Shown here: one piece after another, positions 30,992 to 48,770 of the stretch
Numbering within the stretch: position 1 is the first letter of the stretch
Layout: each line of letters starts with the position of its first letter
NCBI GenBank assembly: GCA_973895155.1
Contig: OZ316897.1
Coordinates: 19,230,168-19,294,167, forward strand
Source of the DNA: Marsupella aquatica
Taxonomy: Eukaryota; Plantae; Marchantiophyta
Length of the DNA stretch: 64,000 nucleotides
Direction: 5' to 3'
The notes under the pieces: generated by a model
Seen by the model: only the letters and a program-made list of their open reading frames with translations
Database searches by the model: none
Told to the model about the DNA's origin: nothing
Translations under genes and position numbers: made by a program

Positions 30992-31336
30992 TGTTAGGAT
31001 TTACTCTTAGGTCTAGAGTTACGACTGTACCATAGTTAAGGTTAACCTTAGTCGCAGACTTGGTTAGGTTAGTCATGCTGTGCACACTCTATAACCAAGC
31101 GGTGTTTGCTTGGAGAGTGGGAACTCAAGCTCATTGTTACGGAGCTAGTTGAGAGATAGAGAGAGCTTGCGCTGTGGATGCTTGGTATGGCCGGTCAGCC
31201 TAGAGTGCAATAAAGCTCATGTGTGTTCCCGAGGACGTAGCCTCATGTGGAGGTGAACCATGTATCTCTCTGTGTCGACTCTTGTGCGTTGGATGGTTCA
31301 TGGGCTTGCCGTTGCAATTGTCGTCTATGCTCAACA
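30992..31336 (+). mobile_element. solo LTR of the copia family seen at 1-3194
   Basis: Near-identical to 2851-3194, TG...CA ends, 5-bp TSD TCTCC (30987-30991 and 31337-31341), no internal sequence. Confidence 0.96.
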
Positions 31337-32432
31337 TCTCCCGATTCAGACCGAGTTGAAGTGGGACACAAAACACTGAAGCGGGAAGGAAGCAAATTGA
31401 ACGTAAGGAACTGTAGCAAAGGGGCAACGGAAATTATTTCCTTTGAATCACGGATGGAGACTGTCAAGCTGCAAAACAACAAGTGAGCGTTTCCTCCCAA
31501 AGCAGCAACAAGCCCGATGAAACACATTGACAAGAGGGGAACGAGTGCACAAAGAACCGCCACATCCAAATCTCACAACAAGACAACAAAAACATCGAGC
31601 AAACATCGACCCAAACCGCTAAGTCCAAAACCCTCCTTAACTGCAAACCCTAACAAAGCTAATTCATGTTTACAAGAGAAGTGTGCACTTAACCAGGGAA
31701 ACACTTAAAACATACCAAAAAACCCAACATACCTAAAACTCCATTTCTCTGTGAAAAAGTACCACCTCGGCAAAGAAACATAATCAAGCCCTTAATTGGG
31801 TCATCAAAATGAATTAATGGGTGGTAATTAACCACTAATCAAACGGGAAAACAAAAAATCTACCCCACTACCCTATAAATTAAAATGTAACGTCTTGTCA
31901 ATTTGAGATTGGAAACTTTATTTCACAGTTCAATGAGTTGAAATAGAAAAGGGGTAAACAAAAATGGTCTGAAATGAAAGAGTATTTTTAATTTTTTCCT
32001 CAATGATAAGAAACAAATAAATCCTAAGACACAATTAGTTGGTTTTCACATATACCATACATCAAGAAATAAAATGTGGACCAATCCATGATTGAAATAT
32101 AAGTTGCTTGAATGGTATAAATTATATACTTATTAAAAAAAAGCAATTGTTTGGAACAAAATTTGAAAGATGTATAAGAGGGAACAAACATGACATGGAA
32201 GGATCATCTATTTGCTTGGTTGGCATAAGTTATTACAATACAAACTCCCTAGACCTCAATTTGAGGGGGAGAAAAGAATGTATTACCCAGCTCATATTAC
32301 CCTTAGGACATTCAAATACAAACTGACAATACTAATTACTAAATACAAGGTATTTATAGAGGTTCACCCCCTATATCTAGTGGGGATAGTTGTTAAGCTT
32401 ACCATGGAGGATAGGGGCCAACCTCATATAAG

Positions 32433-32769
32433 TGTTGAGCATAGACGAAATTCGTAACGGCAAGCCCATGAACCATCCAACGCACAATAGTCGACACAGA
32501 GAGATACGTGGTTCACCTCCACATGAGGCTACGTCCACGGGAACACACAAGAGCTTTACTGCACTCTAGGCCGACCGGCCATACCAAGCATCCACAGCAC
32601 AAGCTCTCCCTATCTCTCAACTAGCTCCGTAACAATGAGCCTAAGTTCCACCAAGGTCTGGCATCAGCCCTGGCTATATACACAATAGCACTACCGCTAA
32701 CATTAGCTAAGTTGAGTTAGCCTAACTGTGGTTAGCACAAGAGTCACAAGACTAGAGCAATATCTAACA
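32433..32769 (-). repeat. 3' LTR of the nested copia
   Basis: Matches 50267-50608 with about 5 substitutions and 2 small indels. Confidence 0.96.
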
Positions 32770-32975: not shown

Positions 32976-33582
32976 CTACAACTGCAAAACCTGCAAAGTA
33001 GCACGGTGTCTTGAGAAACTCTCCAAAGGAATCACTTTGGTAAAAGCATCAGCGGGATTGAGCTTTCCATCAATCTTGACTAGCTCAAAAGTTTTATCAG
33101 ACACTACTTGCCTGATAAAATGGTACCTGATATCAATGTGCTTCACCCTGCTATCCATCACCTGGTTAGCAGCCAAGTGAAGAGCACTCTGACTATCACA
33201 GTTTAGAGTCATTTTGCCATGCTCTAAACCCATCTCCACGATCAACTTGTCCAACCAAATTGCTTCCTTTGCAGCTTCTGCTGCTGCAACATACTCTGCT
33301 TCTGTAGTAGACTGAGATATGCACTTCTACAAGGTAGATTTCCAACTGATACATCCTCCTCCAAGAGTGTATACAAACCCAGTTGTAGACCTCCTTGTAT
33401 CCAGACAGCCTCCATAGCCAGAATCTACATAGCCAACGAACGTTCTATCTGATCTGTTATCAAATAGTAATCCATAGTCCTCTGTTCCCTTCAGATACCT
33501 GAGAATCCACTTCACAGCTTCCCAATGTACCTTCCCTGGATTTGACATGAATCTGCTAACCTTGCCCATCGCTAGGGCCAAG
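32976..33582 (-). pseudogene. copia RT C-terminus and RNase H remnant
   Basis: HWEAVKWILRYLKGT, GYVDS, STTGFVYTLGGGCISWKS, KHIDIRYHFIRQ, NPADAFTK; one in-frame stop at 33327. Confidence 0.92.
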
Positions 33583-34367
33583 CACTACAACACTATCGGC
33601 CGGTTTTGCGAAGACAATCTCATCGCAACTAACAAGCCCCTGATTTTCATAATTCTGGCTATTGCGAACATACGCGCATCGCACCCCCTTCGCACTTTGC
33701 GAACCTAATAACTTCGCACGTGGACCATCGCAACGGCATCGCAACATCATGACAAACTGAGAAGCTGAGAGGTTCGCAATATTCAATACTTCTGCGATCC
33801 ATTATACGTCGCATAAGGTTCGCAAACATACACGCACACGTCCCACGCGGGCGTCAATATTTGAGACGGATTTACCATCGCATCATATTTGCGATTGATA
33901 CTGGTTCAATTGTTTTGATGGGGATTGTATGACAAAGAGCGATACCGGTGATTTCAGAAGTTTGTGAACGGTTGCGATTAGGAAAGTGCGATCCTAGAAG
34001 TATCACAAAAACCCGACATATTTGGATCTGAAGTTCTGAAGTTAATTGACTCAAAAAGTGCGACGCCTTGGGGTTAATATTGTGCGATGGGAATGAGTTC
34101 TTAAAGGGTTCGCAAAATTATGATCACACAGGATTCAATACATTATTTGCGAGGGGTTTTCCTTGGAACCCAATGTGGAAGGCAAAATTGTTGTTTTATA
34201 AAATGGAAAAGCATGAACAAAATGATAGGGCTTCAAAGAACCCTATACATGGACAAGAGGGGGGAAATATCTGATGCTAGGTCCGCCCTTCTAAACCTAT
34301 GCTGCCTCTTCCTACCCTAAGCTCCGGCATGACAAGTCACTCTCATGCATGTATCTCTACAAAATAA

Positions 34368-36413
34368 CTAGAATGGGCTCTTGCGGCTCCTCTTGGTTGG
34401 CTTCTTGGCTGGCTTCTTGCCCTTATCCTTCCGGGGATCCTATTGGTGACGGGTGCGTGATGGCCGTCGGCGCTCCTGCTCTTGCTCCTGCTGCTCCTCT
34501 GGCTCCTCCTGCCCCTCCTGCTCCTCCTCCTCATCCTCAGGGTCCTCCTCCTCCCCCTGGTCATCAACGTGTGCTGATGACACACGACTACCACCACTAC
34601 CACGGTGGGAAGAACCTACCTCACGACTACTCCCCCCCGAGCACCACTAGTACCAGGAGTAGCCCCCTCATCGTCATCACTACTGGTCACATCAGCACCC
34701 GACCCCTCAGGCTCATCCGAATCCTGCATCCATTACATATCATTAGTTTCCGCAAGACATAAAGGGTCACTCACAATGTTTGCATGCTAATCATATGGTT
34801 CACACTTAGACACTTACAGTAGCCAACTCGGCATCTACCATCGCAAAGAGGTACTTTCGTCCATGCTCTATCGCCACCTCAATATGCTTTTTTGATATCT
34901 TCCTTTTGTACCTACGATACTGCCATGCATAAAACCAATTAAAATTGGTTAAATTTGCCCTTAAGCATACCCTATAGCCACAAGTGACGCCTAAATCCTC
35001 AACTACTAAACATGACCCAAAAAAATTTTAAAATTCAAATTTGCGAACCTATAAGCATAGCAACTTGCGAACCACCTTTTTTTGCGAAGGCGTTGCGATG
35101 GAGTTTGTGATGCGCATTTGTTCGCAAAGGCATCGGAAAATTGAAATGGAAAAAGTCTATGATAGACTTTGCGAGGGGTTTGCGAACAAATACGCATCGC
35201 AACACCTTCGCAAACTGTGTTCCCGAGAGTTTTTAAAAATTTGCCAGAAATTCTAAGTGTCAGAGTTGCCCTAAACTAGTAACCAAGCAAGCATGCACAA
35301 CAGCAAGAACCTTCGGGGATGTCATTCACTTGCATTGCACAACTCTGAAAGGAATAGAGAGGTTAGGGAGGAGCAAGAGGCACTCACAAAGTGTGACTTG
35401 AGGCCAGGGAGCCCGCCTTGACCCAACTTGTGGACTGGATTGGGGGTGGATTTCACTCGTTTGGCTGCATCTGTGAAACGCTTGGGTGGCTTTCCCTCCT
35501 GGTCGGCCACCTTCTGCATCTCAGCTACCTTCTGCTCAAGTGGCTTCAGGTCATGGTCAGGGGGGAGCTTCCCGGCCTCCTTTGCTTTCAAGGCTCGATC
35601 TAGATTGCCCTTCCACTCTTCCAACTCGTGAGCTGCCTTAATTTGCACCTCAATCTTGTAAAACGAATTCCAGATGTCCTCGGTGAAGTGGAGGGGTCTG
35701 CGCAAGTTCCTGTATGATCTCAAGTCTTTCAGGTGGGCTCTAATCTTCATCCTGTCATGGTATCGCATTTGAGACATAGAATTTGAAATCTTATCTGCCA
35801 ACCATTGCTCATCTATGTCAGGCCCATTGCGAAATGCATCCTTGATTTGGTTGATGACCCTCTTTCGCTCTGCCTTCTCAATCTTCCCCCACTGCATGCC
35901 TCGTGAGAAATTGCTTGTGATAATCTGCTTGATTGTGCTCTTAGCCCCTGCATATGCTAGCTCAGTTGGAGTCCCACTCATCTCCAAGGCAATGAATGGA
36001 AGTTTTTTTCTTGCTTCCTCTTTCTGACGTTGCTCCTCCCTCTGTTTTCGAATTGAATCTCTCTCCTCTCTTCTCTTCTGCTTCTCTAGGGCTTGAGGAG
36101 AGGCAACTCCCGACTTAGTTCTTTCCTCTCTCTTCCTTTTTTTCTCTCTAGCCTTCTCTTCAGCTGCGGCCCTCTCCTCCCCCTCTCTAGTAGCTTGTCC
36201 TGCTACAATCCCAGTTTGCAAAACCTGTCCAAGAATGGCACTCAAAGAGGCAAGCTCTGCTGGAGAATTGAGATTCACTTCTCCCAATTGTGCAGCACTG
36301 AGATGTTGGGCCACTAAGTCTGCCCAGGCATTCTTCTCTTTCTCTGGATTTCCCCCATTGCCACTACCACTACCACTACCACCTTGCCCTCCACTCCCCT
36401 CACCGGTAGCCAT
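34368..36413 (-). CDS. CACTA ORF2 (TnpA-like accessory protein), 3 exons, last exon damaged
   Basis: Exons 36413-35388, 34919-34818 and 34723-34368 splice at phase 0. Charged helical N-terminal part, W..I.K..RK..I..I.D.F segment, HKLGQGG motif, acidic tail and basic NLS-like end. A 1-bp frameshift in the G-run near 34632-34638 and a TAG near 34440. TnpA identity is inferred from context. Confidence 0.7.
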
Positions 36414-36759
36414 AGCTCCCCTCTCTCACAGTCTCCCTCGTACTGTTGCGCGCGCCCCGGCCCTTCTCGTCTCGCTCAAAAACTGAAATGAGCCCGAATG
36501 CGAGCTCCCGCCGATGTTTACGCCGTTTAAAAATGGGTTTGCGATGACATACGCATGGGAAACTGCGAAGCCCGCGCCCTCGCAAATAGTCTCGCAACTT
36601 GCGAGGCACTTCCGAATCTATTCTCTTCGTAAAGCCATCACAACCCGCAGAAGACCCAAAAAATTGTTCTCGGCCTCTGTTTTTGCGAAGCAAGTGCGAA
36701 GGTCGTAGGTTCGCAAAAATATTCTCTAACTTGTGAAATAATTTGCGAGGCAGGTCTTA

Positions 36760-37700
36760 TCGGTTTAGGGTTGGAAAACACTTTGGGGTGTCAAACGGCT
36801 ATTAAGGTTTGTCAAACGACATTTAAGGTATGTTAAGTGCCCATAAGTTAACATGGAAGGGGTGTCAATGGATGTTTGGGTTGTAAGGATAACTAGAATA
36901 TAAGTTAACAAAGGTTTGGGTTTAATTAAAGGTTAGGTTTATATTTGGTTTTAATCTAGGAGTATTTGGTTTAATTAAGGGGGTTAAAACTTGGGTTAGG
37001 TTGGAATAAAAGGGTTGGGTTTAAATTAATGGGTTTGGCTTAGGGTTCAAGGTAGAGGTTTGCATTAGGTTGTGAGTAATTACAGGGGTTGGGTTTGGTT
37101 TTAGTTGAGGGGTTGAATTGTGGTTGTTTTTTAAAGGGATTGGGTTTGGTTTTTAGTTGGGGGGTTTAATTGTGGTTTTTTTAAAGGGGTTGGGTTTCTA
37201 ATGTAAGTGTTTGGGTTGGGGTGTAACATGATATAGGGTTGGATTTGGTTCTAATTGAGGGGGTACAATTTTTGCTTAAGTTTTAAAAAAGGGCCTCAAT
37301 TTAGGGGTTAGGGTGAAGTTTAGAATAACTATAGGGGTGGGGGTTGGCCTATATAGGTAAAGTAAGGTGTAGATAGGATAAGAGTTTTATATGTAATTGG
37401 GGGATTTGGGTTGGGTTTAGGGTAAAGGTTTGAAATTTTAATGAGGGATTTGGGTATTGGTTAGGATAAGGGTAAGGGTTTAGGGTGCTTGAGGGATTTG
37501 GGTTAGGTTTTAATGAAGGGTTTCATTTCATGGTTTGGGTTTAGGGTAGGTGTTTGGGTTTAGGGTAAAGGTTTGAATTTTTAATGAGGGATTTAGGTAT
37601 TGGTTAGGATAAGGGTAAGGGTTTAGGGTGATTGAGGGATTTGGGTTAGGTTTTAATGAAGGGTTTCATTTCATGGTTTGGGTTTAGGGTAGGGTTTGGG
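36760..37700 (+). repeat. G/T-skewed low-complexity spacer with telomere-like GGGTTTAGGG motifs and a 143-bp direct repeat
   Basis: Very few C on the + strand; TTTAGGG near 36763, 37300, 37416, 37478, 37540, 37559, 37622 and 37683; duplication with period 143 (about 37411 and 37554). Confidence 0.85.
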
Positions 37701-38134
37701 TTACTTATATTTCTTTGTCTATCTCATTAACATGGAGAGGAAAACTCTTTGGCGTTGTAGGGCACTTCCCCATGTTTTTTAAAGTTTTGGCTAATGCATG
37801 ATAATGCCTTGCGAGAGCCCGGGCATCTGAAAGGTATAACATTTTCTCATGCATTTCTAGTCATTGCTGTAAATATGGAGGGTTATAATCTATCATCCTT
37901 TTTTTCTGGTTCACCATAAGGCATGGCTTAATTCATTGTATATTGGCAGATTTTCCCCTCCTTCCAGATTTGGTTCATGAAATTTGAGCCACAAGATCCG
38001 TCAAGGCATTGCTAAGCCCGGGTCTCATAAAGGTATTTTTCTGTCAATTCTTTTTAATATGTTTAGGTAGGGATTATCAATGATGGTTTTGGTGAAGTTT
38101 TTACTAATCGCCTTCCAATTGCTATACTTGTCAG

Positions 38135-39296
38135 ATGTCTTCATCCTCTACAACTTCCACCACATCAGATTCCTCTTCCAATGAAGAAAGTCATCCTCCT
38201 CCTCAACCTGAACCAACCGTACGTCGACCTAGTGGTCCACCACGCCAACTTTGTGGTTGTAAAAAATGTATGGGGATGGTTGTCCAAAAGTCATATGTAT
38301 GTGCGGAGCACATTGCTCGATATGGCCAACATCGAGGTCTTACACCGGGAGCTTCTTCATCCCGTATGGTGAGTTGTAAACTTACTGTGATTTCCATTTT
38401 ATTTTGTAAATCTTGCTAGGTAGCATAAAATAAAATTTGGGAGGTTCATCACACTCACTTGGTTCCATTTCTTCCTATAGGTATCCAGTAGGCCTACACC
38501 CACTACACCAACACCCTATGTTCCCTCACAAGGAGTTCTAGATGCTATAGGCTCGGCACTTTCACAAGCTTTTCGTTTAGTGGCAGCAGGGCAAGGTAGT
38601 GTTGGGACAATTAAGGGTGACGGTATTGTTACAAGAGGGAAAAAAAAGTCAAAAAGACAGCCTAGAGGGGAAGTGGATCAGTACACTTGTAGGGTTGATG
38701 GTAGATGGGGCCCTTGTACCTTCACAAGGAAGTGTGTTCCTATCATAAAGGATTGGAATCCGGAGTGCCTTGGTTTGCCATGTGATATAACCTATGGTGA
38801 GGAGATAGAAGTTTGGGGAAGACGTTGGGTTGTCAAGAGTTCGACCCTAGGGGAGAGGCATGGGTATGGGATTTTCTCTTGTCAGGACATTATTGTGGAT
38901 GATATGGGTGGAAAAGGGCGCTCTTCAGATGGACCAACGTTGTTCCCGTATGGTGGACCCATTTACAAGAGGAGACATTGGAACATGATCCTTGTTCAAC
39001 ACCCTGAGTGGAAGACTTATGCATTGGACATGGATACTTTTGATGGTTGCACCAGAAAGTATTGTGACCAGCGTATAATTGATGGTGATCCCATCCGTAG
39101 TGGGAATATTGCCGGTTTCATCAACAGTACTGTGGGGACCCGGCCTAAGCGTAGGAAAAACTGTGAATGGGTTTTTGTTGATGGTCCCCCTCCAGCCCCT
39201 TATGGGCAGAGATATCATCATGACCATTGTCTAGTTGTAGCTAATAGGACCATTCTGGTTGGAGAGGAGTTGTTTACACATTATGAATGGGATTAG
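38135..39296 (+). CDS. transposase-associated Cys/His module fused to a SET domain (predicted 349-aa splice product)
   Basis: Exon 38135-38368 (QLCGCKKC...CAEHIARYG; donor GTGAGT, phase 0) plus exon 38481-39296 (acceptor TTCCTATAG, phase 0, no stops). SET motifs: VKSSTLGERHGYGIFSCQDI, YGGPIY, YALDM, IIDGD...GNIAGFINS, NCEWV, VVANRTILVGEELFTHY. Confidence 0.85.
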
Positions 39297-39446
39297 GATT
39301 ACTTTAGGAACATGTATTATACGTTCATCGTATGTGAACGTATGTTTTGTAATGACATGTTCTTTTTATATTGTTAATAATATGTTTCGAGCACTACTAT
39401 ATTTGGCGTTAATTTCATTGTGAATACTTTATTGTATTTTCTATAG

Positions 39447-42400
39447 AATGTGCGGCCTAGTCAAGATATGTTGCCAAGGAGGTTGAGAGCTACATATCAA
39501 GAAATGGGCTTGCCACAAGACGGGGAAACATCATCAGCAGATTCCTCATCAAGTGACAATGATAATGACAGTCCAGATGAAGGGGCACCTCGGACAGATT
39601 ATGAGGTCATGCAAGACCAAGAGTCAGCCATGGATGACTTCATGACAGATTGGTTTGGTGTAGACATTGGTGGTGAAGGAGGTGTCCCACCCAATGAAGG
39701 AGACCCTCCACCAAATGTTGCACATGATCCAAGGCCTCAACGTACACCTGAAGGACAAAAACAATGGGAAGAAGCTGAGGCACATGCTAGAACACCTATT
39801 TATGGGGGTGCTCGTTTGAATAGACTATCTGCCATCTTGGCATTGATGAATCTTCATGCAAAACACAAGGCAAGCAATACGCTACTATCGGATTTGTTTG
39901 CAATTTGCCATGATCTCTTGTTACCTAGTGAAAATCTGTTGCCAGGAACTTGGAAGGAGGCAAAGAGGGTTCTATCATCCATTGGCATGGAATACCATAT
40001 CATTCATGCTTGTGTGAATGACTGCATTCTCTATCATGAGACCAATGCCAGCGCAACTGAGTGTCCAATTTGTCAAGAGCCTCGATATGAAACCAACATG
40101 TTGACCTCAAAGGTGCCTAGAAAAGCTGTTCGTTGGTTTCCTATTATTCCTCGATTGTTGCACATGTACCGATGTTCTGACTTGGCAGAATTGATGGTAT
40201 GGCATAAGACACATCGATTAGAGGCCGGTGTCATGCGGTTGCCAGTTGATTCCCCTGCTCACAAGCATGTGGAGTCACAATGGCCAGAATTTGCACGTGA
40301 CCCTCGTCATGTGAGGTTGGGGTTGGCATCAGATGGGGTAAGCCCACACTCCCTTGGAGGGAAAGGGCGCCCTACTTCGGTTTGGCCGGTGGTTGTTATG
40401 AATTACAACCTTCCCCCATGGTTGTCCATGAAAAAGGGATTCTTATTGCTATCATTGATTATCCCAGGTCCATCTAAGGTAAAAAACATGGACACCTACT
40501 TGGCGCTCTTGGTTGGGGAACTCCATAAATTATGGGGGGGTGTATGGGCATATGATGGTCGGACAACTATAGGAGGGTTACCACGTGTCTTCCAATTGAA
40601 GGGAATCATTATGTGGACCATGCATGACTATCCAGGTGAGTGGTATGGATTTGTATTTTTTTCATGTATTGGAGATCAAGTTTGTTTGGAAGGAAGTCCC
40701 TCTTTAATTCTATGTACATGAACTTTTCAATTCCTTTGACTCTAATTGAGAATGTTATTTTGTGAGCAGGGTTTGGGTTTGTTTCTGGGTTCCAAACTCA
40801 AGGGTACAAGGCATGCTCCACTTGTGGTCCAAGCCTTCACGATATGGCCAAGTACTCAAAATGGCTGCACAAGATAATCTACCTTGGTCATACCAAGTTT
40901 CTTCCACTTGGGCATCACATGAGGTCTGACCCCCTTTTGTTTTCAGACTTTGACATGATCAATGGTGATGAGCGTGAGATACCTGACCGCACAACATTTT
41001 CGTATTGGAAATCCATAGCTGATAGGGTGGCAGACCCTGAAGATGCCATGGGATTTGATGGTAGTGGATTGACAAGGTGGGGTATACTGGCCACTTTGCC
41101 CTATTGGCCTGAGTTGAAGATTCATCACTTGTTAGACCCCATGCATATAGAGGGAAATGTTGGGAAGGCTTTGATCAAGCACTTAATTTTATGGGGAAAA
41201 GAACATTAATTTTAGGGAGGCATGCCAGGATCTAGAACGACATCCAGATGTATGGATAACAGTTGATGAATCCACAGGGATGGAACATCGTCCTTCAGCT
41301 CCATGGGTTTTGAGTGTTGGTGAAAGAAGAGAGTTTCGACAACGCATAGGGCAGATCATGCGGTTTCCTACAGGCTATGGTGCCAATCTACGTAAGGCTT
41401 TTGGGATGGAGGACAGTCATAAATGGCCAATGTATCTCAAGACACATGACTATCATCGTTTACTACAACATATACTTCCTGTGGCAATCATAGGTTTGGG
41501 GAGTGAAGAAGTGCAAGACGCCCTTTGGTCACTAGGCACTTTGTTGAGATGGATATGCTCAAAGGAAATATATGAAGAAGAGATACCACGGATGGAGGTA
41601 TTGGCAGCAGAGGTGGTATGCAAGTTGGAGAAGGCCCTCCCTCCTTCCTTCTTTGATTGTCAGATGCATCTTCTCGTTCATCTTGTGAGGGAGGTTGCCA
41701 TTGCCGGTCCGGTGCATTGTAGGTGGATGTATTGGCTGGAAAGGTATATGGCCGTGTTAAAGGCTTATGTACGGAACCGTGCACGAGTGGAGGGGAGCAT
41801 GGCAACTGGATACTTGGCAGCTGAGAGTATGTTTTATTGTAGTAACATCTTAGCTACCATTGATCCTAGTTTTCCACGCACTTGGATGGAAGAGAGGGAA
41901 GTGGAGGAGGACCGTTTAACAAGTGCAAAAAAAACACGCTTACTAACCGCAGTGGAGTTGACACAGGTTAGTACTTTCATGTTGAGTAACAGCAATGTGA
42001 TGGAAGATTGGAGAGAGTTTTATGAGGATGCAAAGAGGGAGAGTCGTCGCCCAAGGATCTTTCCAAAGTTCCTTGAGTATATGAAGGAGAAAGTACTTCA
42101 GTTGGATGCTATGGTGGCCCAAGGTGAGAATGTATCACATTTTCCAGATATGACTCCTGAGGTTCGAACAATTGTTCATGGTCCTTTAAGACTTGTTCAA
42201 ACCAGAACAGCAATGTGGACACAAGGGAGGCATTTCAGGATTTCTGACCTTGATGAGAAGAGGGGAAGAACTTTTGATTGTGGAGTTCAAGGGCAGTTCA
42301 TGCAAGATTCACAAAGTAGCCGTCATGACACTAATGTGATCAGAGATGTGGTGCCTCACTATGGGAAGATTGAGGAGATCTTGATCATATCCTATGATGC

Positions 42401-42722
42401 CGATTCCAAATTTGAAGAGTATGTCTTCAAGTGTAAGTGGTTCAAAATTCACCTGGTTGGTGATAATCGCACGGTACTTCTTGATGAGTGTGGGTTTACT
42501 CGACTGAAGACATCAGCAACTAGCTTTCAACCATCTCATTGGCAAACATCTGAACCATTTACATTCCCAAGTCACCTTGAGCAGTGTTTCTATATTCCGT
42601 ACCCACCAGACCTAGAGTGGTCAGTTGTTATACCGTATGTGCCACGGTCCCGTTCCATTATCTCGGAAAAACCTGACGTTATTATTGTGTCAAATGGAGG
42701 CGAGGATGAGGACCAGGTTTGA
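39447..42722 (+). pseudogene. CACTA TnpD transposase core (Transposase_21, DUF4218 and DUF4216-type regions), one frameshift
   Basis: IHACVNDCILY, CPICQEPRY, FPIIPRL, LGLASDGVSP, YNLPPWL, LIIPGP, TMHDYP|intron 40636-40769|GFGFVSG, LDPMHIEGNV, KTHDYHRLLQ, HLLVHL, GPVHCRWMY..ER, YGKIEEI, FKCKWF. A net +1 frameshift (probably a 4-bp insertion) near 41186-41190. The acceptor at 39446/39447 is in phase with exon 38135-38368. Confidence 0.95.
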
Positions 42723-43465
42723 TGCACTAGTAGTAAAACTTGTTGTGGGCCCAGAATTTGACCCTAAACTAACTATCATGGTTTTATTTATATTAACATA
42801 TTACTTTTCTTCTTTTGTTTTACAAACACTTAATTGGACTTTGAAATTTCATCTCACTGTTATATATGCAACCTTAGCCGTTTCCAAAGCTATCCTCATG
42901 CATGCCACCTTTTTGAAAACCCTAGCTGTAACCTAAACACATGCATTCTCCATCTTGTAAAGAAACTCTCTCAAACATTTCCATTCTACAAAATTTTCAA
43001 ACAACTCTCTTTGCAAAACATTTTCAAGCTTGTCAAGAAGCAACTTCTGAACACTTTGTGAATAACACACCATCGGTAATTGTGATGCCAATGTGTTCTC
43101 AACTTTGCGAATCAACTGGATTCGGTAACTTGCGACTATTTATGCTTCACAATATTGTGCGAAGCTAATAGGTTCACAATATATATTTGAGTACATTATT
43201 ATCGCTAAATTATGAAACAAAAGAGATCCAAATGCAGTCGCGATGGTCGCGGATCCACAAATACTTTGCGAGACGAATAGTATCTGAAAGAGTTGCGAAT
43301 TCAATCCAATCTCCAACAAATTGCGAGGTATTTAGCTTCACAACACCTGTGAGCATGGTTTATTGTGATGCGTGTTTGATCACAAAATATCTGGAGTCGA
43401 TGACATCGCAAGACCATCCCAGCGTCAAAAAAAAGCTTCGCAAAAGGGGCCAATATGTAGTAGTG

Positions 43466-45808
43466 AAGTCAGGCCTAGTACAAGTCATCAAATACATCAG
43501 ACTGCCTACTGCCTTCTCATAAGGAATCTTAGCCATCAGACCTTTCTCCACAGCATCCGTAGGAGAGAAAGCCGATGATAACTTGAAATGTGAAGCTAAA
43601 GGAATACTCACTGGCTTATAGTTCTCCATGTTGAATCGTGCAAGTACTTTCTTCGCATACTGGCCTTGACTCAAGCACAACTGTCCAGTCTCAGAGTTCC
43701 TAAAAATCTCCATCCCTAAGATTCTCTTGGCCTTACCAAGATCCTTCATCTTGAATTCAGCACTCAATTTCAGAATGTCAACCTTAGATTGATCTTTAGC
43801 CACAATCAACATGTCATCCACATAGATAACCAGAATGATGAAACCAAATACATCATTCTTGACTGATTTTGTATACACACAAGGATCATACATCATCCTT
43901 GTAAAACCTTAAGCAAGCATGAAATCATCAAACCGCTTGTTTCACTGTCTGGGAGACTGCTTCAATCCATACAAGGACTTGAGCAATCTGCAAACTAAGT
44001 TCTCTTGGCCCTTCTTCATAAAGCCTAGTGGCTGTCTCATGAAGATCAGCTCTTCCAAGTTGCCATAGAGAAAAGCAGTAACAACATCCATCTGATCCAT
44101 CACCAGACCAAAAAACACAACAAGCTGACACAAGATCCGAATTGTGGAATACTTAGCAACCGGTGAAAAGACCTCATTGTAATCCACTCCTTTGTCCTGA
44201 GTGAATCCCTTGGCAACAAGCCTTGCCTTGTAGATCTTGTCTCCACCCTCTGAAGGACTATCCTTCAACTTGTAAATCCACTTGCTGTCTACCACTTGCT
44301 GACCTCTTGGAAGCTCCACCAGTTCCCATGTTTTGTTGTCACTCAAAGATTACAACTCCCTTTGCATTGCTGCATTCCACTCATGCTTCTGCTCTGAAGC
44401 ACAAGCCTCACTATACGAAGAAGGCTCTCCTTCTTCCAAGATCAAAGCCATATCATCTTCATCAGGTGCAATGTCAATATCATCTAGCTTACTTAGATGA
44501 GTCTGCCCATTGACCATACCTGGTAGGAGCTCTAGTAGAACGACTGGAAGTTCTTCTAGTAGATGACTCAGGCTGATCTATTGCTGCTGCTGGTTGAATT
44601 TGAGGTACCCTAGCAACAATCTGCTCCTCTTGTTCCATCACAGGAACCAGCTCCAAGCCCGGAGCTTCTCCATCTCTCCTATCATGAACTGCATCATGAC
44701 TAATCTCCCCCTCAACCCGGTCCGGGATGGGAGATTTCCCCTTGTCAGTATGGGAGTCCTGAGAACTCTCCCCCTCCTTTGATGATCTGGATTCATTAAA
44801 GGACACATCTCTACTGACAATTAGCTTACAGCTTACTGGATCCCATAACCTATAACCCTTCACACCTTTCTGATAACCAAGGAAAATGCACTTCTTCGAC
44901 TTGGACTCCAGCTTGGATCGAAGCTGGGAAGGTGTAAGCACATAAGCATCACATCCAAAAATCCTCACATGTGAGTAATCTGCTGGACGCCCGTACCTCA
45001 TTTCAAATGGCGTCTTGAATCCAATAGAACTAGATGGAGAAAAATTTACCAAATAAGCTGCAGTGTTGACAGCTTCAGCCCAAAACTCATGTGGTAAGCA
45101 TGATTGACTCAACATACTCCTCGAGCGGTCCAATAGTGTTCGGTTGAGTCTCTCAGAAACACCATTCTGCTGAGGAGTATAACTTGTTGTGAGATGGCGG
45201 GTAATCCCCTACTTCTTACAATACGTTCCAAATTCCGCGGAACTGTATTCACCGCCGTTATCCGATTGAAGATATCTCACCTTATTACCAGTCTGATTCT
45301 CAACTTGGGCTTTCCACTCCTTAAAAGTGGCAAAAACATCAGACTTATTGTGTAGAAAGTATATCCACACATACCTTGAGTAATCGTCTATGAACATGAC
45401 ATAGTATAACCGTCCAGAATGTGAGGGAGTAGGGGCTGGACCCCACACATCACTATGTACATACTCAAGTACCTCCTTGCTGGTGTGAGTTCCAACTCCG
45501 AAGGGTTTCCTGTGCTACTTCCCTAGCACACAGTGCTCACAAAATTCCAACTTACAAGATTGCAAATTAGAAAGTAATCCTTTCTTCTGAAGAATAACCA
45601 AACCTTTTTCACTCATGTGGCCCAAACAGAAGTGCCACAGCCAGGCCGTCTCCTCATGAGATAAGGTTACATTGGCTTCATCACAAACTACACTGCCCTC
45701 CAAAATGTATAGATTGCTATGTCTCTTTCCCTTCAATACAACTTTAGTACCAGTTGAAACCTGAAGGACACCATTAGCAGAGCTCCACTGATGGCCATTT
45801 GCTTCTAA
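43466..45808 (-). pseudogene. copia GAG-pre-integrase, integrase and RT remnant
   Basis: WHFCLGHMSEKG...CEHCVLGK, FIDDYSRYVW, SDNGGEY, YKARLVAKGFTQ, IYVDDML; several stops and frameshifts. Confidence 0.93.
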
Positions 45809-46139
45809 CACTAGTACATATTAAGCTGATTTCCGATGCTCAATTTTTGCAAACAATCGGCGTCCGATTCTTTTAGCATCGGAAATTCCGATTATCAAAA
45901 AATGGCAATATGCCATACTCTCGACTTCGGATATCTTCATTTCCGATATAATTGACAACGAAACCTTTCCGATGCGTTAAAAAACGGATCATATCCGTTA
46001 GAAAACACATCGGATCCCTCAACAGAAACTTTGATTGATATGTCCGATGTTTTTTGTAACGAAAATGATGTGCGTTACAATATTGATCGGAAACTTTCCG
46101 TAGTTAATAATAACGGATATTATATCCGATTGTGCTAAC

Positions 46140-46295
46140 ATGGCAAAGTCCGATGCTGGGAGTATGGGAAAGTCCGATGCTAGAAGAATGGGAAAGTCCG
46201 ATGCTGGAAGAATGGGAAAGTCCGATGCTGGGAGTATGGGAAAGTCCGATGCTAGAAGAATGGGAAAGTCCGATGCTGGGAGTATGGGAAAGTCT
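46140..46295 (+). repeat. 24-bp subterminal tandem array ATGGGAAAGTCCGATGCT(GGGAGT/AGAAGA)
   Basis: About 6-7 consecutive copies; inverted counterpart at about 47145-47290. Confidence 0.93.
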
Positions 46296-47144
46296 GGTTA
46301 TGACAAAAAGAAAATTTTTGATTGTGTTAGAATGAAAAGTTTTGATGTGTTAGATGGGGTATGTGGTTGCACTGACATACTCTTCCCAAAAGATGCAATC
46401 ATTCTTGCATGCATGAATAACTTCATACTTGAGGCAAATGGACTTGAGTGTTATTTTTGCCTCATTCCAAGACCCAGCATATTGTTCCCTTACGGAAATA
46501 TGTGCTCAACATGCCAAGTCCAAAATACATCATCTAGAAGGAGGTTGCTTGTCCCATGTAGTCTTTGTTGCAAGTCCAACAACAACATAGTTGATAAAAG
46601 ATGAGACAATCAGGAGCCATTGACGCTGAGGCTTTGGAAGGACCAAAATATCATCCATAACTAATAAGCCATAATTATCCCATATCAAATCTAATGAAGG
46701 AGGGCTTTACTATCCATGAATGACCCCTGCCAGATTTCTATTGGTTTCTCCTAGGGGAATGTAATAGGGTAACTAGAATAGGTCACTTGATGCAAAGATC
46801 TAATCTCATGATAGAGAAAAATGGATCAAGAATGGGTCCAAATTATGGGTCTTAGTAAACTCACAAGTGTATAAAATCCCCAAACACTCTAAGTCAAACA
46901 ACAAAAGTGCTAAGCTTGCATGTACAATGTAAGGAATAAGAACCACAAAGTTAAGCTCATGTTGGAGGAATAGCAATTGGGATGGGTGACCAATTAGTTG
47001 AGAAAATTTGAAGAGTTCACATGTCAAGGGAGATGGGCACCTAGCTCATAGTTCCAAATGAAAGTAGAAACCCAATTAAAGGAAGAGATGGGTGACCTGA
47101 GCATGTCGCGTCCGCTGAAATGCATATCCCATTTTGATTGCTTT

Positions 47145-47290
47145 GGACTTTCCCATTCTCCTAGCATCGGACTTTCCCATTCTCTCACCATCGGACTTTC
47201 CCATTCTCCTAGCATCGGACTTTCCCATTCTCCCACCATCGAACTTTCCCATTCTCCCTTCCCATTCTCCCACCATCGGACTTTCCGATA
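47145..47290 (-). repeat. inverted copy of the 24-bp subterminal array
   Basis: CATCGGACTTTCCCATTCTC repeated about 5 times. Confidence 0.9.
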
Positions 47291-47432
47291 GAAGTCTGAT
47301 TGTCGATATCCGATACTATTAAAATGGCATGTTGCGATGCTAGTAGTATCGGATATATGGTTTTTCAAATTTTATTTTACAAAGGCGTCCGATGTGGAGA
47401 GAATCGGAAAAAGGAGGTAAAATGTACTAGTA

Positions 47433-48770
47433 TAAAACTCCAAGTGAAATGAGATTTTTCATCATGCTGGGAATATGTCTCACATTCCTCAACGTTCTCA
47501 CAACACCATCAAACATCTGAAATCTTACAGATCCAAGTCCAACAACTTGACATGGGATTCCATTTCCCATCAACACTGACCCATTGGAAACCGTGTAAGA
47601 ACAGAAACAATTTCTCCTAGAGCAAATGTGAAAAGTACATGCACTATCTAGAATCCAGTCATCACTACCTGGATTTGACACTACGTTGAGAGCATAATCT
47701 TGACATCACAATATGTCATCATCATCGAGTAAATCTACCTCATGCGAGCTCGATGTCGCATTAGCAGAGGCAGTAGGGACCTTTACTCGACAATCCCTTT
47801 TCATGTGGCCAGGCTTGCCACAATTCCAACATGCAAGAGGCTTCCTCTCTTGCGATTTCCCTCTGGATTTAGATCTCCCCCGTGATGTAGATCTAAACCT
47901 GTTCTGCCCATTCGTGCGCTGCGCTGCTCTTCCCCTGTTCACATTGAGCGCAGTGCCAGAAGAAGATGTTGTGTGTGATTGACCCAACTTCTTCTGAGCA
48001 TCATTAGATAACAAAGAGCTCACCACCTCATTATACAAAATGAACTTCAGATCTCTGTACAAGAGCACTTGTTTCAAGCCCTGATATGACGGCGGTAAGG
48101 AGCTTAGCAGAAGCAAGGCCTTATCCTCATCTTCAACTCCTTTTCCCAGGTTTGACAGATCCACTGCTAGACTGTCAAATTCATCCAGGTGATCCTGCAT
48201 CTTGCTCCCTTCCTTGAGCCTGAGGCTCATCAAGAGAGACTTCTTGTACAACCGGTTTGACGCATCTTCCCGGTAGTACTTCGGTCTAAGAGCCTTCAAC
48301 AGTGACGCACAATCCGCATAATCATCCAGTTGCTTGATGATGTGCGGCTTGAGATATAGCATCACTGCATTGACAGCAATCACCTGCTCCTGTCTCCACT
48401 GTCTCAGAAAAATCTTCTCCTCCCCATCATACTGCTCTCGCGATGAAAGCAGATGAGCTAAGCCCATGGCCCGCAGAATACCCTTCACTTGCTTCTCCCA
48501 CAGCAAGTAATCAGTACGACCATCGTACTTCTCCACCTCAAACTTTACTCCTCCGAATCTAGCCATCTCCCTCTTCTTCCCTACTACCGACAGCTCTGGT
48601 AGTAACACAGCTTCCTCCACTGCACGCCGCACCGGTGATCGTACCGGTGTCACTAGTTCTTCCTCAAACGGTAGCAGCTCCTCCTCAGACTCTCCGTCTG
48701 ACCGTCGCGATCCTGAAGCTCCACCGACGCCAATTCTTCCAGTATCCTCCGAGTCACTCATATGAAACAA
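47433..48770 (-). pseudogene. copia gag (with zinc knuckle) and protease
   Basis: KFEVEKYDGRTDYLLW, EDEDKALLLLSSLPPSY, CCHC knuckle CWNCGKPGHMKRDC, protease WILDSACTFHI; in-frame stop at 47706 between gag and protease. Confidence 0.92.

What the first reader, a model, noticed from the sequence alone, without database searches (positions are those of the whole stretch)
38135..42722. One shared first exon can splice in frame either to the SET exon or to the transposase
Seen: exon 38135-38368 encodes the Cys/His module typical of CACTA transposase N-termini (CGCKKC...CAEHIARYG) and ends at a phase-0 GTGAGT donor. Two downstream acceptors share the ending CTATAG (to 38480 and to 39446) and both are phase 0. 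The first gives a 349-aa module-SET protein, the second gives module-TnpD, so the SET exon sits in the first coding intron of the transposase. Known: maize En/Spm makes TnpA and TnpD by alternative splicing of one transcript. Inference: a splice or polyadenylation switch produces a SET protein carrying the same N-terminal module as the transposase, which argues for integration rather than a passenger fragment.
Basis: partly seen in the sequence, partly recalled or inferred. Interest (0 to 1): 0.85.

Follow-up and report, generated by a model that had tools for sequence, protein, structure and literature searches.

The report
Transposon splices SET enzyme or transposase
A cut-and-paste transposon family of mosses and liverworts carries a conserved gene for a likely protein-methylating (SET) enzyme inside an intron of its transposase, so that one small Cys/His exon is predicted to start either product; no RNA was available here to show either splice.

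Summary
Observation confirmed with two corrections: 38135-38368 is the first coding exon (non-coding exons likely lie upstream), and this copy's transposase has a 4-nt frameshift near 41183 that sister copies lack. The region lies in a 9.9-kb CACTA element (33583-43465, AAG duplication) inserted in a copia element. The exon encodes a short PF13963-type Cys/His module; the SET exon folds as a SET domain (pLDDT 93, Z 12.3) and is under purifying selection (dN/dS 0.15-0.18). The order module-SET-transposase holds in 9 of 9 metagenome loci long enough, with donor and both acceptors at homologous phase-0 positions. The SET exon has no start codon before its first motif, so it needs the module exon; the seven codons ahead of the transposase's own Met are conserved as protein (P about 0.0004), so they are likely translated from an upstream exon. 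Module-SET models exist in Sphagnum, Calypogeia and Riccia. No RNA holder was listed, and no database protein joins module directly to transposase. SET genes in transposons and En/Spm alternative splicing are both known; their combination was not found in print. This scan noted the same family four times before in other genomes.

The parts
33583..43465 (.). CACTA element, 9883 bp, ends CACTACAAC.. / ..GTAGTAGTG, AAG target duplication (33580-33582, 43466-43468)
   Evidence: ends; contigs of all 4 runs laid join 33579 to 43466; copia reading frame CTRP|..LALAMG continues across it
33583..34150 (.). left subterminal region rich in TGCGA/TCGCA motifs (also 34950-35260, 36480-36760, 43050-43465)
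   Evidence: 19-36 per kb against 0.7 per kb outside and 0.3 in the transposase; repeat families D8-D11
35322..36425 (-). divergent accessory gene, first large exon (Met at 36413, likely donor after 35388); function not identified, TnpA-like by recalled motifs only
   Evidence: present in 46 of 61 loci at 42-61% identity; dN/dS 0.11; no Pfam, PDB or Atlas assignment
37950..38032 (+). predicted non-coding 5' exon (AG at 37948-37949, GT at 38033); a further donor at 37834
   Evidence: aligns with L060; inferred, no RNA
38135..38368 (+). shared first coding exon: Ser-rich start and CxCxxC-x13-H module (short PF13963 type), phase-0 donor
   Evidence: (hhalign to angiosperm TnpD N-termini, probability 90%, E 1.7e-6)
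38369..38480 (+). 112-nt intron to acceptor 1
   Evidence: length 101-118 in relatives, frame not kept
38481..39296 (+). SET exon (271 codons plus stop): variable linker and SET core from about 38685; predicted alternative terminal exon
39297..39446 (+). 150-nt T-rich spacer: predicted 3' UTR/poly(A) region of the SET product and 3' end of the 1078-nt transposase intron
   Evidence: poly(A) site not identified
39447..40635 (+). TnpD-type transposase exon beginning NVRPSQD-MLPRRL
40636..40769 (+). transposase intron, phase 1
   Evidence: GTGAGT ... GCAG; gap at the same place in L038, L046, L049
40770..42722 (+). last transposase exon, with a 4-nt insertion near 41183-41186 in this copy

Best explanation
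This is a bryophyte CACTA transposon family whose SET exon sits between a Cys/His coding exon and the transposase body, and which is predicted to make two proteins from one transcript by choosing between two splice acceptors: module-SET (349 aa) or module-transposase (1123 aa in copies without the frameshift). Shown: the element, its ends, the exon order, the conserved phase-0 sites, the SET fold and selection on it. Inferred: use of acceptor 1 is coupled to cleavage and polyadenylation in the 150-nt spacer (alternative terminal exon), while skipping to acceptor 2 removes the SET exon as part of a 1078-nt intron. Inferred further: the SET product is a SAM-dependent lysine methyltransferase that the shared zinc-type module brings to the element's own DNA or transposase complex, most likely to keep the element's chromatin permissive. 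Substrate and direction of the effect are untested.
For: Junction 1: the SET exon's first Met is residue 142, after the GxG motif at 128; the intron has an in-frame stop and changes length in relatives; gene models join module and SET at this point in Calypogeia P0001 and Sphagnum P0003 (cluster of 360 members), and Riccia P0212, P0238, P0258 and Logan ORF P0216 also carry module plus SET at 34-45% identity to the window core. Junction 2: 89 of 120 transposase relatives carry the CxCxxC..H motif at the N-terminus, 78 with the same 13-residue spacing, and the transposase exons here have no other such module; AG at the homologous phase-0 place in 9 of 9 loci and at the contig end of L060; NVRPSQD vs NIRPSED before the Met, 6 base changes including Ser AGT/TCT, random placement reaches that score in 0.00044 of trials; no phase-0 GT with a donor-like context is shared inside the SET exon. 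Integration: dS window vs Sphagnum-like loci 1.0 (module core), 1.27-1.46 (SET core), 1.3-1.47 (transposase); dN 0.17-0.22. Enzyme: model pLDDT 92.9, Z 12.3, rmsd 2.6 over 124 residues to COMPASS Set1; GxG 67 of 71 and 71 of 72, N215 67 of 74, E263 63 of 65, Y268 60 of 64.
Against: None of the 16 proteins found with the module profile joins the module directly to the transposase (candidates were capped, weak evidence), and none of the 120 listed long transposase hits was a Sphagnum or Calypogeia model. The transposase has its own conserved Met eight codons into the exon, so it does not strictly need the module for a start. Acceptor 1 is AA rather than AG in 4 of 28 loci, and L042 and L047 show no SET hit despite over 300 nt downstream. 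The module scores below the Pfam cut-off, and a module HMM reached only 4 of 118 angiosperm transposases at domain E under 0.01. The SET motif NHS has Ser for His in 72 of 74 sequences. The codon test is post hoc, on 21 nt, with a naive substitution model.
Confidence: 0.7

Rival explanations
1. Two separate products: the module belongs to the SET protein only, and the transposase likely starts at its own Met (MLPRRL) from a separate start site, a non-coding exon spliced to 39447, or re-initiation on a two-gene transcript.
For: MLPRRL Met conserved in window, Sphagnum-like loci and Riccia P0087; all intact models with the module are module-SET; two GTATGT donors lie in the window's spacer after the SET stop.
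Against: Pre-Met codons are conserved as protein; the spacer donors are absent from L034, L049 and L060; most plant TnpD relatives begin with this module (89 of 120).
Confidence: 0.15
2. Only the module-transposase splice is used in practice; the SET exon is a nested gene that is likely expressed rarely or from its own start, or is kept for a non-enzymatic role.
For: Acceptor 1 decayed in 4 of 28 loci against 0 of 9 for acceptor 2 (small numbers); Sphagnum SET exons have an early in-frame Met (263-aa models); His of NHS is replaced.
Against: The window's SET exon has no early Met; acceptor 1 keeps phase 0 in window, Sphagnum-like loci and L060 although intron length varies; catalytic-type residues are conserved.
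Confidence: 0.12
3. The SET exon is a captured host fragment riding as a passenger (Pack-CACTA type), and the in-frame acceptors are chance.
For: Gene capture by CACTA elements is common (PMC8616336, passages); each phase match has a one-in-three chance.
Against: dN/dS 0.15-0.18 with dS equal to the transposase's; same order in 9 of 9 long loci and SET next to transposase in four Riccia models (P0087, P0088, P0283, P0297).
Confidence: 0.03

Closest known systems
Maize En/Spm and Arabidopsis EN/SPM3, EN/SPM7 (TnpA and TnpD from one alternatively spliced gene; PMC13547354 and bioRxiv 10.64898/2026.08.24.746577, passages read)
   Same: CACTA ends, 3-bp duplication, TnpD domain set, predicted two products from one transcription unit.
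   Different: The second product is a SET protein, upstream of the transposase body and sharing a coding zinc-type module; the candidate accessory DNA-binding gene is separate and divergent. Neither paper's main text contains 'SET domain'.
Red-algal Plavaka PAG2 (bioRxiv 10.1101/2025.02.11.637652, passages read)
   Same: A SET gene carried by a CACTA-related DNA transposon, proposed to modulate chromatin.
   Different: PAG2 is a separate accessory gene fused to an adenine methylase domain; no shared exon with the transposase is described in the passages read.
HarbingerS and MuDR families of Phytophthora; SET-carrying Helitrons (cited in PMC12730594 and the Plavaka preprint, passages read; Repbase originals not seen)
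   Same: Transposon-borne SET methyltransferase genes.
   Different: Other superfamilies and hosts; described as accessory genes.
VANDAL VANC anti-silencing proteins (PMC12730594 passage; PMC10398659 listing only)
   Same: Possible role: an element-encoded factor acting on the element's own chromatin.
   Different: VANC is no SET enzyme; no functional test exists here.
SETMAR/Metnase (recalled; its SET domain is row 39)
   Same: SET and transposase linked through splicing.
   Different: A single domesticated host fusion of SET with mariner transposase; here mobile, multi-copy, and the two are alternatives, not a fusion.
Solved SET domains: Set1/COMPASS, EZH2, SET7/9, SET8, Legionella LegAS4
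   Same: Fold (Z 10.7-12.3); LegAS4 is the best sequence-profile match (E 3e-6) and also lacks the His of NHS.
   Different: 16-26% identity, no subfamily stands out, no Cys post-SET; substrate cannot be read off.

Membership tests
CACTA/En-Spm DNA transposon | termini CACTA...TAGTG | tested here: met
CACTA/En-Spm DNA transposon | 3-bp target duplication | tested here: met
   AAG both sides; joint with 3 shared letters
CACTA/En-Spm DNA transposon | TnpD transposase PF02992 + PF13960 + PF13952 | tested here: met
   this copy frameshifted, sister copies not
CACTA/En-Spm DNA transposon | N-terminal PF13963 module | tested here: inconclusive
   below Pfam cut-off; profile match 90%, same Cys/His spacing; joining to TnpD not seen in RNA
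CACTA/En-Spm DNA transposon | subterminal repeats | tested here: met
   motif density
CACTA/En-Spm DNA transposon | TnpA-like accessory protein | tested here: inconclusive
   conserved divergent gene, no family assignment
En/Spm-type alternatively spliced unit | two products seen in RNA from one unit | not testable with these tools
   no RNA holder listed
SET-domain lysine methyltransferase | SET fold | tested here: met
SET-domain lysine methyltransferase | GxG, YxG, NH(S) and ELxxxY motifs (motif names recalled) | tested here: inconclusive
   GxG, Y/FxG, N, E and final Y conserved; His replaced by Ser in 72 of 74
SET-domain lysine methyltransferase | methyl transfer to lysine | not testable with these tools
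   needs an assay
Pack-CACTA passenger capture | neutral, recent host fragment | tested here: not met
   dN/dS 0.15-0.18, dS equal to transposase

The most novel reading that the evidence does not exclude
An ancient bryophyte CACTA lineage uses a splice/poly(A) switch to turn one gene into either its transposase or a self-targeted histone methyltransferase: the shared zinc module docks the SET enzyme on the element's own DNA or transpososome, where it writes marks that defeat host silencing, the first enzymatic anti-silencing writer encoded by a land-plant transposon.
Probability: 0.25. Interest if true: 0.85.

Novelty: new variant of a known kind. Interest (0 to 1): 0.6.

Why it matters
Plant transposons are known to resist silencing through non-enzymatic DNA-binding factors (VANC, TnpA). 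A CACTA family that has kept a lysine methyltransferase under selection across mosses and liverworts, wired into the transposase gene by a shared exon, would give a directly testable case of a plant transposon writing chromatin or protein marks itself, and of a splice choice that trades mobility against that activity. It also explains a set of unannotated 'SET domain' gene models in Sphagnum, Calypogeia and Riccia as transposon genes.

Tried and rejected
No RNA holder listed for 37700-42800; the five runs are contigs showing both introns unspliced, which says nothing on expression. No whole genome held. No spliced junction among the 61 loci; three pattern hits were chance matches far from the gene. 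L061 is an unrelated GC-rich match and was dropped, leaving 60 loci for site counts. First fold from a 14-sequence alignment failed (pLDDT 42.6); the 74-sequence core alignment worked. Single-sequence PDB search found nothing. No relatives of the SET exon in prokaryote genomes or viral contigs by pattern scan (low sensitivity). TGTAA in the spacer of all four sequences examined looked like a poly(A) signal but arises in 26-36% of shuffles, rejected. The shared CTATAG ending is not conserved. Divergent gene: Pfam, Atlas, PDB and a home-made HMM against the 352 proteins held gave no assignment. The SET-core dN/dS against L034 was mis-indexed and redone; L039, L054, L049 were left out there because of internal stops. 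Literature: searches (CACTA, SET domain, transposase, alternative splicing: 2 reviews; CACTA, SET domain, Sphagnum: 0; EnSpm, SET domain, bryophyte: 2, not on this; with liverwort: 1 review) found no description of this arrangement; Repbase reports, subscription journals and preprint supplements were not seen and may describe such families. No complex prediction was sent.

Full report
Observation. The coordinates hold: exon 38135-38368 is 78 codons ending at ATG|GTGAGT; acceptors end at 38480 and 39446, both phase 0; exon plus SET exon gives 349 aa. Pfam places PF13963 weakly on the exon (E 0.0042, under cut-off), SET on 38481-39293 (E 3.3e-5) and the TnpD domains downstream. Two corrections: the ATG follows directly on an acceptor and an upstream 83-nt stretch between AG and GT aligns with locus L060, so non-coding exons likely precede it; and this copy's transposase has 4 extra bases near 41183 and stops after 620 codons, while contigs from runs X1, X3 and X5 lack them.

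The element. CACTAC at 33583 and GTAGTG at 43465 are each flanked by AAG. Contigs of all 4 runs laid join 33579 to 43466; as the flank is itself a repeated copia element, whose frame continues across the site, this fixes the ends but does not show recent movement. TGCGA/TCGCA motifs are 19-36 per kb in four blocks against 0.7 per kb outside. A divergent gene at 36425-35322 recurs in 46 of 61 related loci, is under selection and has no family assignment; calling it TnpA-like rests on recalled motifs only.

Relatives. The SET exon found 39 proteins; the named ones are Sphagnum and Calypogeia fissa models. P0001 (351 aa) and P0003 (343 aa, cluster of 360 members) begin with the same module and join it to SET at the same point. 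A profile search gave 132 representatives; of 20 looked up, five are Riccia sorocarpa, one Calypogeia, one Ginkgo, the rest unnamed. Riccia P0212, P0238, P0258 and the Logan ORF P0216 also carry module plus SET, and Riccia models P0087, P0088, P0283 and P0297 run from SET sequence into the transposase. In a FastTree tree of 61 of the 74 aligned cores (13 short rows left out, midpoint root) module-bearing proteins fall in several deep branches. These are gene models, not transcripts. The host of the window is not known; a bryophyte is inferred from these relatives.

Splice sites. A metagenome scan with the module gave 61 loci, 60 of them real. SET follows the module in 28; all 9 loci long enough to reach the transposase have the order module-SET-transposase; L042 and L047 showed no SET hit despite over 300 nt downstream. 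The donor GT is present in 43 of the 43 loci where the exon end could be located (17 not located), acceptor 1 is AG in 24 of 28 (AA in 4), acceptor 2 is AG in 8 of 8 by script plus L039, and L060, a third family, ends in CATAG|AATATG. Most of these loci are close kin, so the informative comparison is window versus Sphagnum-like versus L060: same positions, same phase, intron lengths 112, 116-118, 111 and spacers 150, 145-146, 219.

Why each junction is likely. The SET exon of the window has no Met before residue 142, past the GxG motif, and the intron holds a stop, so the SET protein needs the upstream exon. For the transposase, which has its own conserved Met eight codons in, three points favour the splice: 89 of 120 transposase hits carry CxCxxC..H near the N-terminus, 78 with the 13-residue spacing seen here, and the profiles align at 90% probability; the seven pre-Met codons read NVRPSQD against NIRPSED, with six base changes of which random placement matches the score in 0.00044 of trials (post hoc, naive model); and no donor-like phase-0 GT is shared within the SET exon. 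Against: none of 16 module-bearing proteins joins the module straight to the transposase, no RNA holder was listed, and no poly(A) signal above chance was found. An earlier AI note (e1-7364039) says RNA reads showed the module-transposase splice but not the module-SET splice in a peat-moss copy; I could not test it and do not count it as support.

The SET product. dN/dS is 0.15-0.18 for the SET core, and its dS (1.27-1.46) matches the transposase's (1.3-1.47) and the module's (1.0), so it has travelled with the element under selection. The core folds at pLDDT 92.9 and matches SET domains without favouring a subfamily: Set1 Z 12.3, EZH2 11.9, SET7/9 11.7, SET8 11.5, LegAS4 10.7 (Foldseek one search agrees). 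GxG, Y/FxG, Asn215, Glu263 and Tyr268 are conserved; His of NHS is Ser in 72 of 74, and the F/Y-switch position is a small residue (motif roles recalled). LegAS4, solved with an H3 peptide, also lacks that His. Activity is likely but untested, and the substrate unknown.

Mechanism. Most likely (0.7) the SET exon is an alternative terminal exon: acceptor 1 plus polyadenylation in the spacer gives module-SET, skipping to acceptor 2 gives module-TnpD. That the module targets the enzyme to the element and that the mark counters silencing are inferences. Rivals: transposase from its own Met (0.15), SET splice rarely used (0.12), passenger (0.03).

Comparison. Alternative splicing in En/Spm and split TnpA/TnpD genes are described (PMC13547354, bioRxiv 10.64898/2026.08.24.746577; passages). 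SET genes in HarbingerS, MuDR, Helitrons and red-algal Plavaka are described (passages). PMC4158355 and PMC8616336 (passages) add nothing on SET in CACTA. Searches found no paper on this arrangement in bryophytes; Repbase and supplements were not seen. The scan reported the same family in four earlier notes on other genomes; the Plavaka, HarbingerS and PMC4158355 leads came from them. Verdict: a real, conserved, new variant of known kinds; interest 0.6.

Noticed in passing
window 35322-36425 (- strand) and about 34430-34930: Divergent conserved accessory gene with probable further acidic, low-complexity exons; no family found. Head-to-head layout differs from the tandem layouts described for Arabidopsis EN/SPM.
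   Followed up: partly
window 36900-37700: Strongly G/T-skewed region between the two genes with telomere-like TTTAGGG units and a 143-nt tandem duplication (37411-37696, 97%).
   Followed up: no
P0001 vs P0003; window vs L034/L038: SET cores of a liverwort and a moss are 76% identical, and dS between the window and Sphagnum-like loci is only about 1.0-1.5 for the plus-strand gene; horizontal transfer among bryophytes is possible, not tested.
   Followed up: no
window 37950-38032: Predicted non-coding exon is conserved in sequence with L060 and resembles the exon end upstream (37815-37833), hinting at a regulatory role; it holds a short non-conserved upstream ORF.
   Followed up: partly
window 31120-32649: 217-nt inverted repeat pair (94%) 1096 nt apart, likely another DNA element or MITE.
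   Followed up: no
window 46284-46475 (- strand): Small fragment of another CACTA transposase (38% identity) near the copia element.
   Followed up: no
window about 32976-33582 and 43466-48770 (- strand): Degenerate Ty1/copia element interrupted by the CACTA insertion within its pol frame.
   Followed up: partly
L038, L046, L049: Sphagnum-like copies have an extra intron in the last transposase exon that the window's family lacks.
   Followed up: no
P0325 (Ginkgo), P0269 (Calypogeia); Atlas rank 3: Distant members of this SET family occur in Ginkgo and with another Cys/His N-terminus; a mostly viral SET cluster scores 0.92 by features, a lead only for the domain's origin.
   Followed up: no
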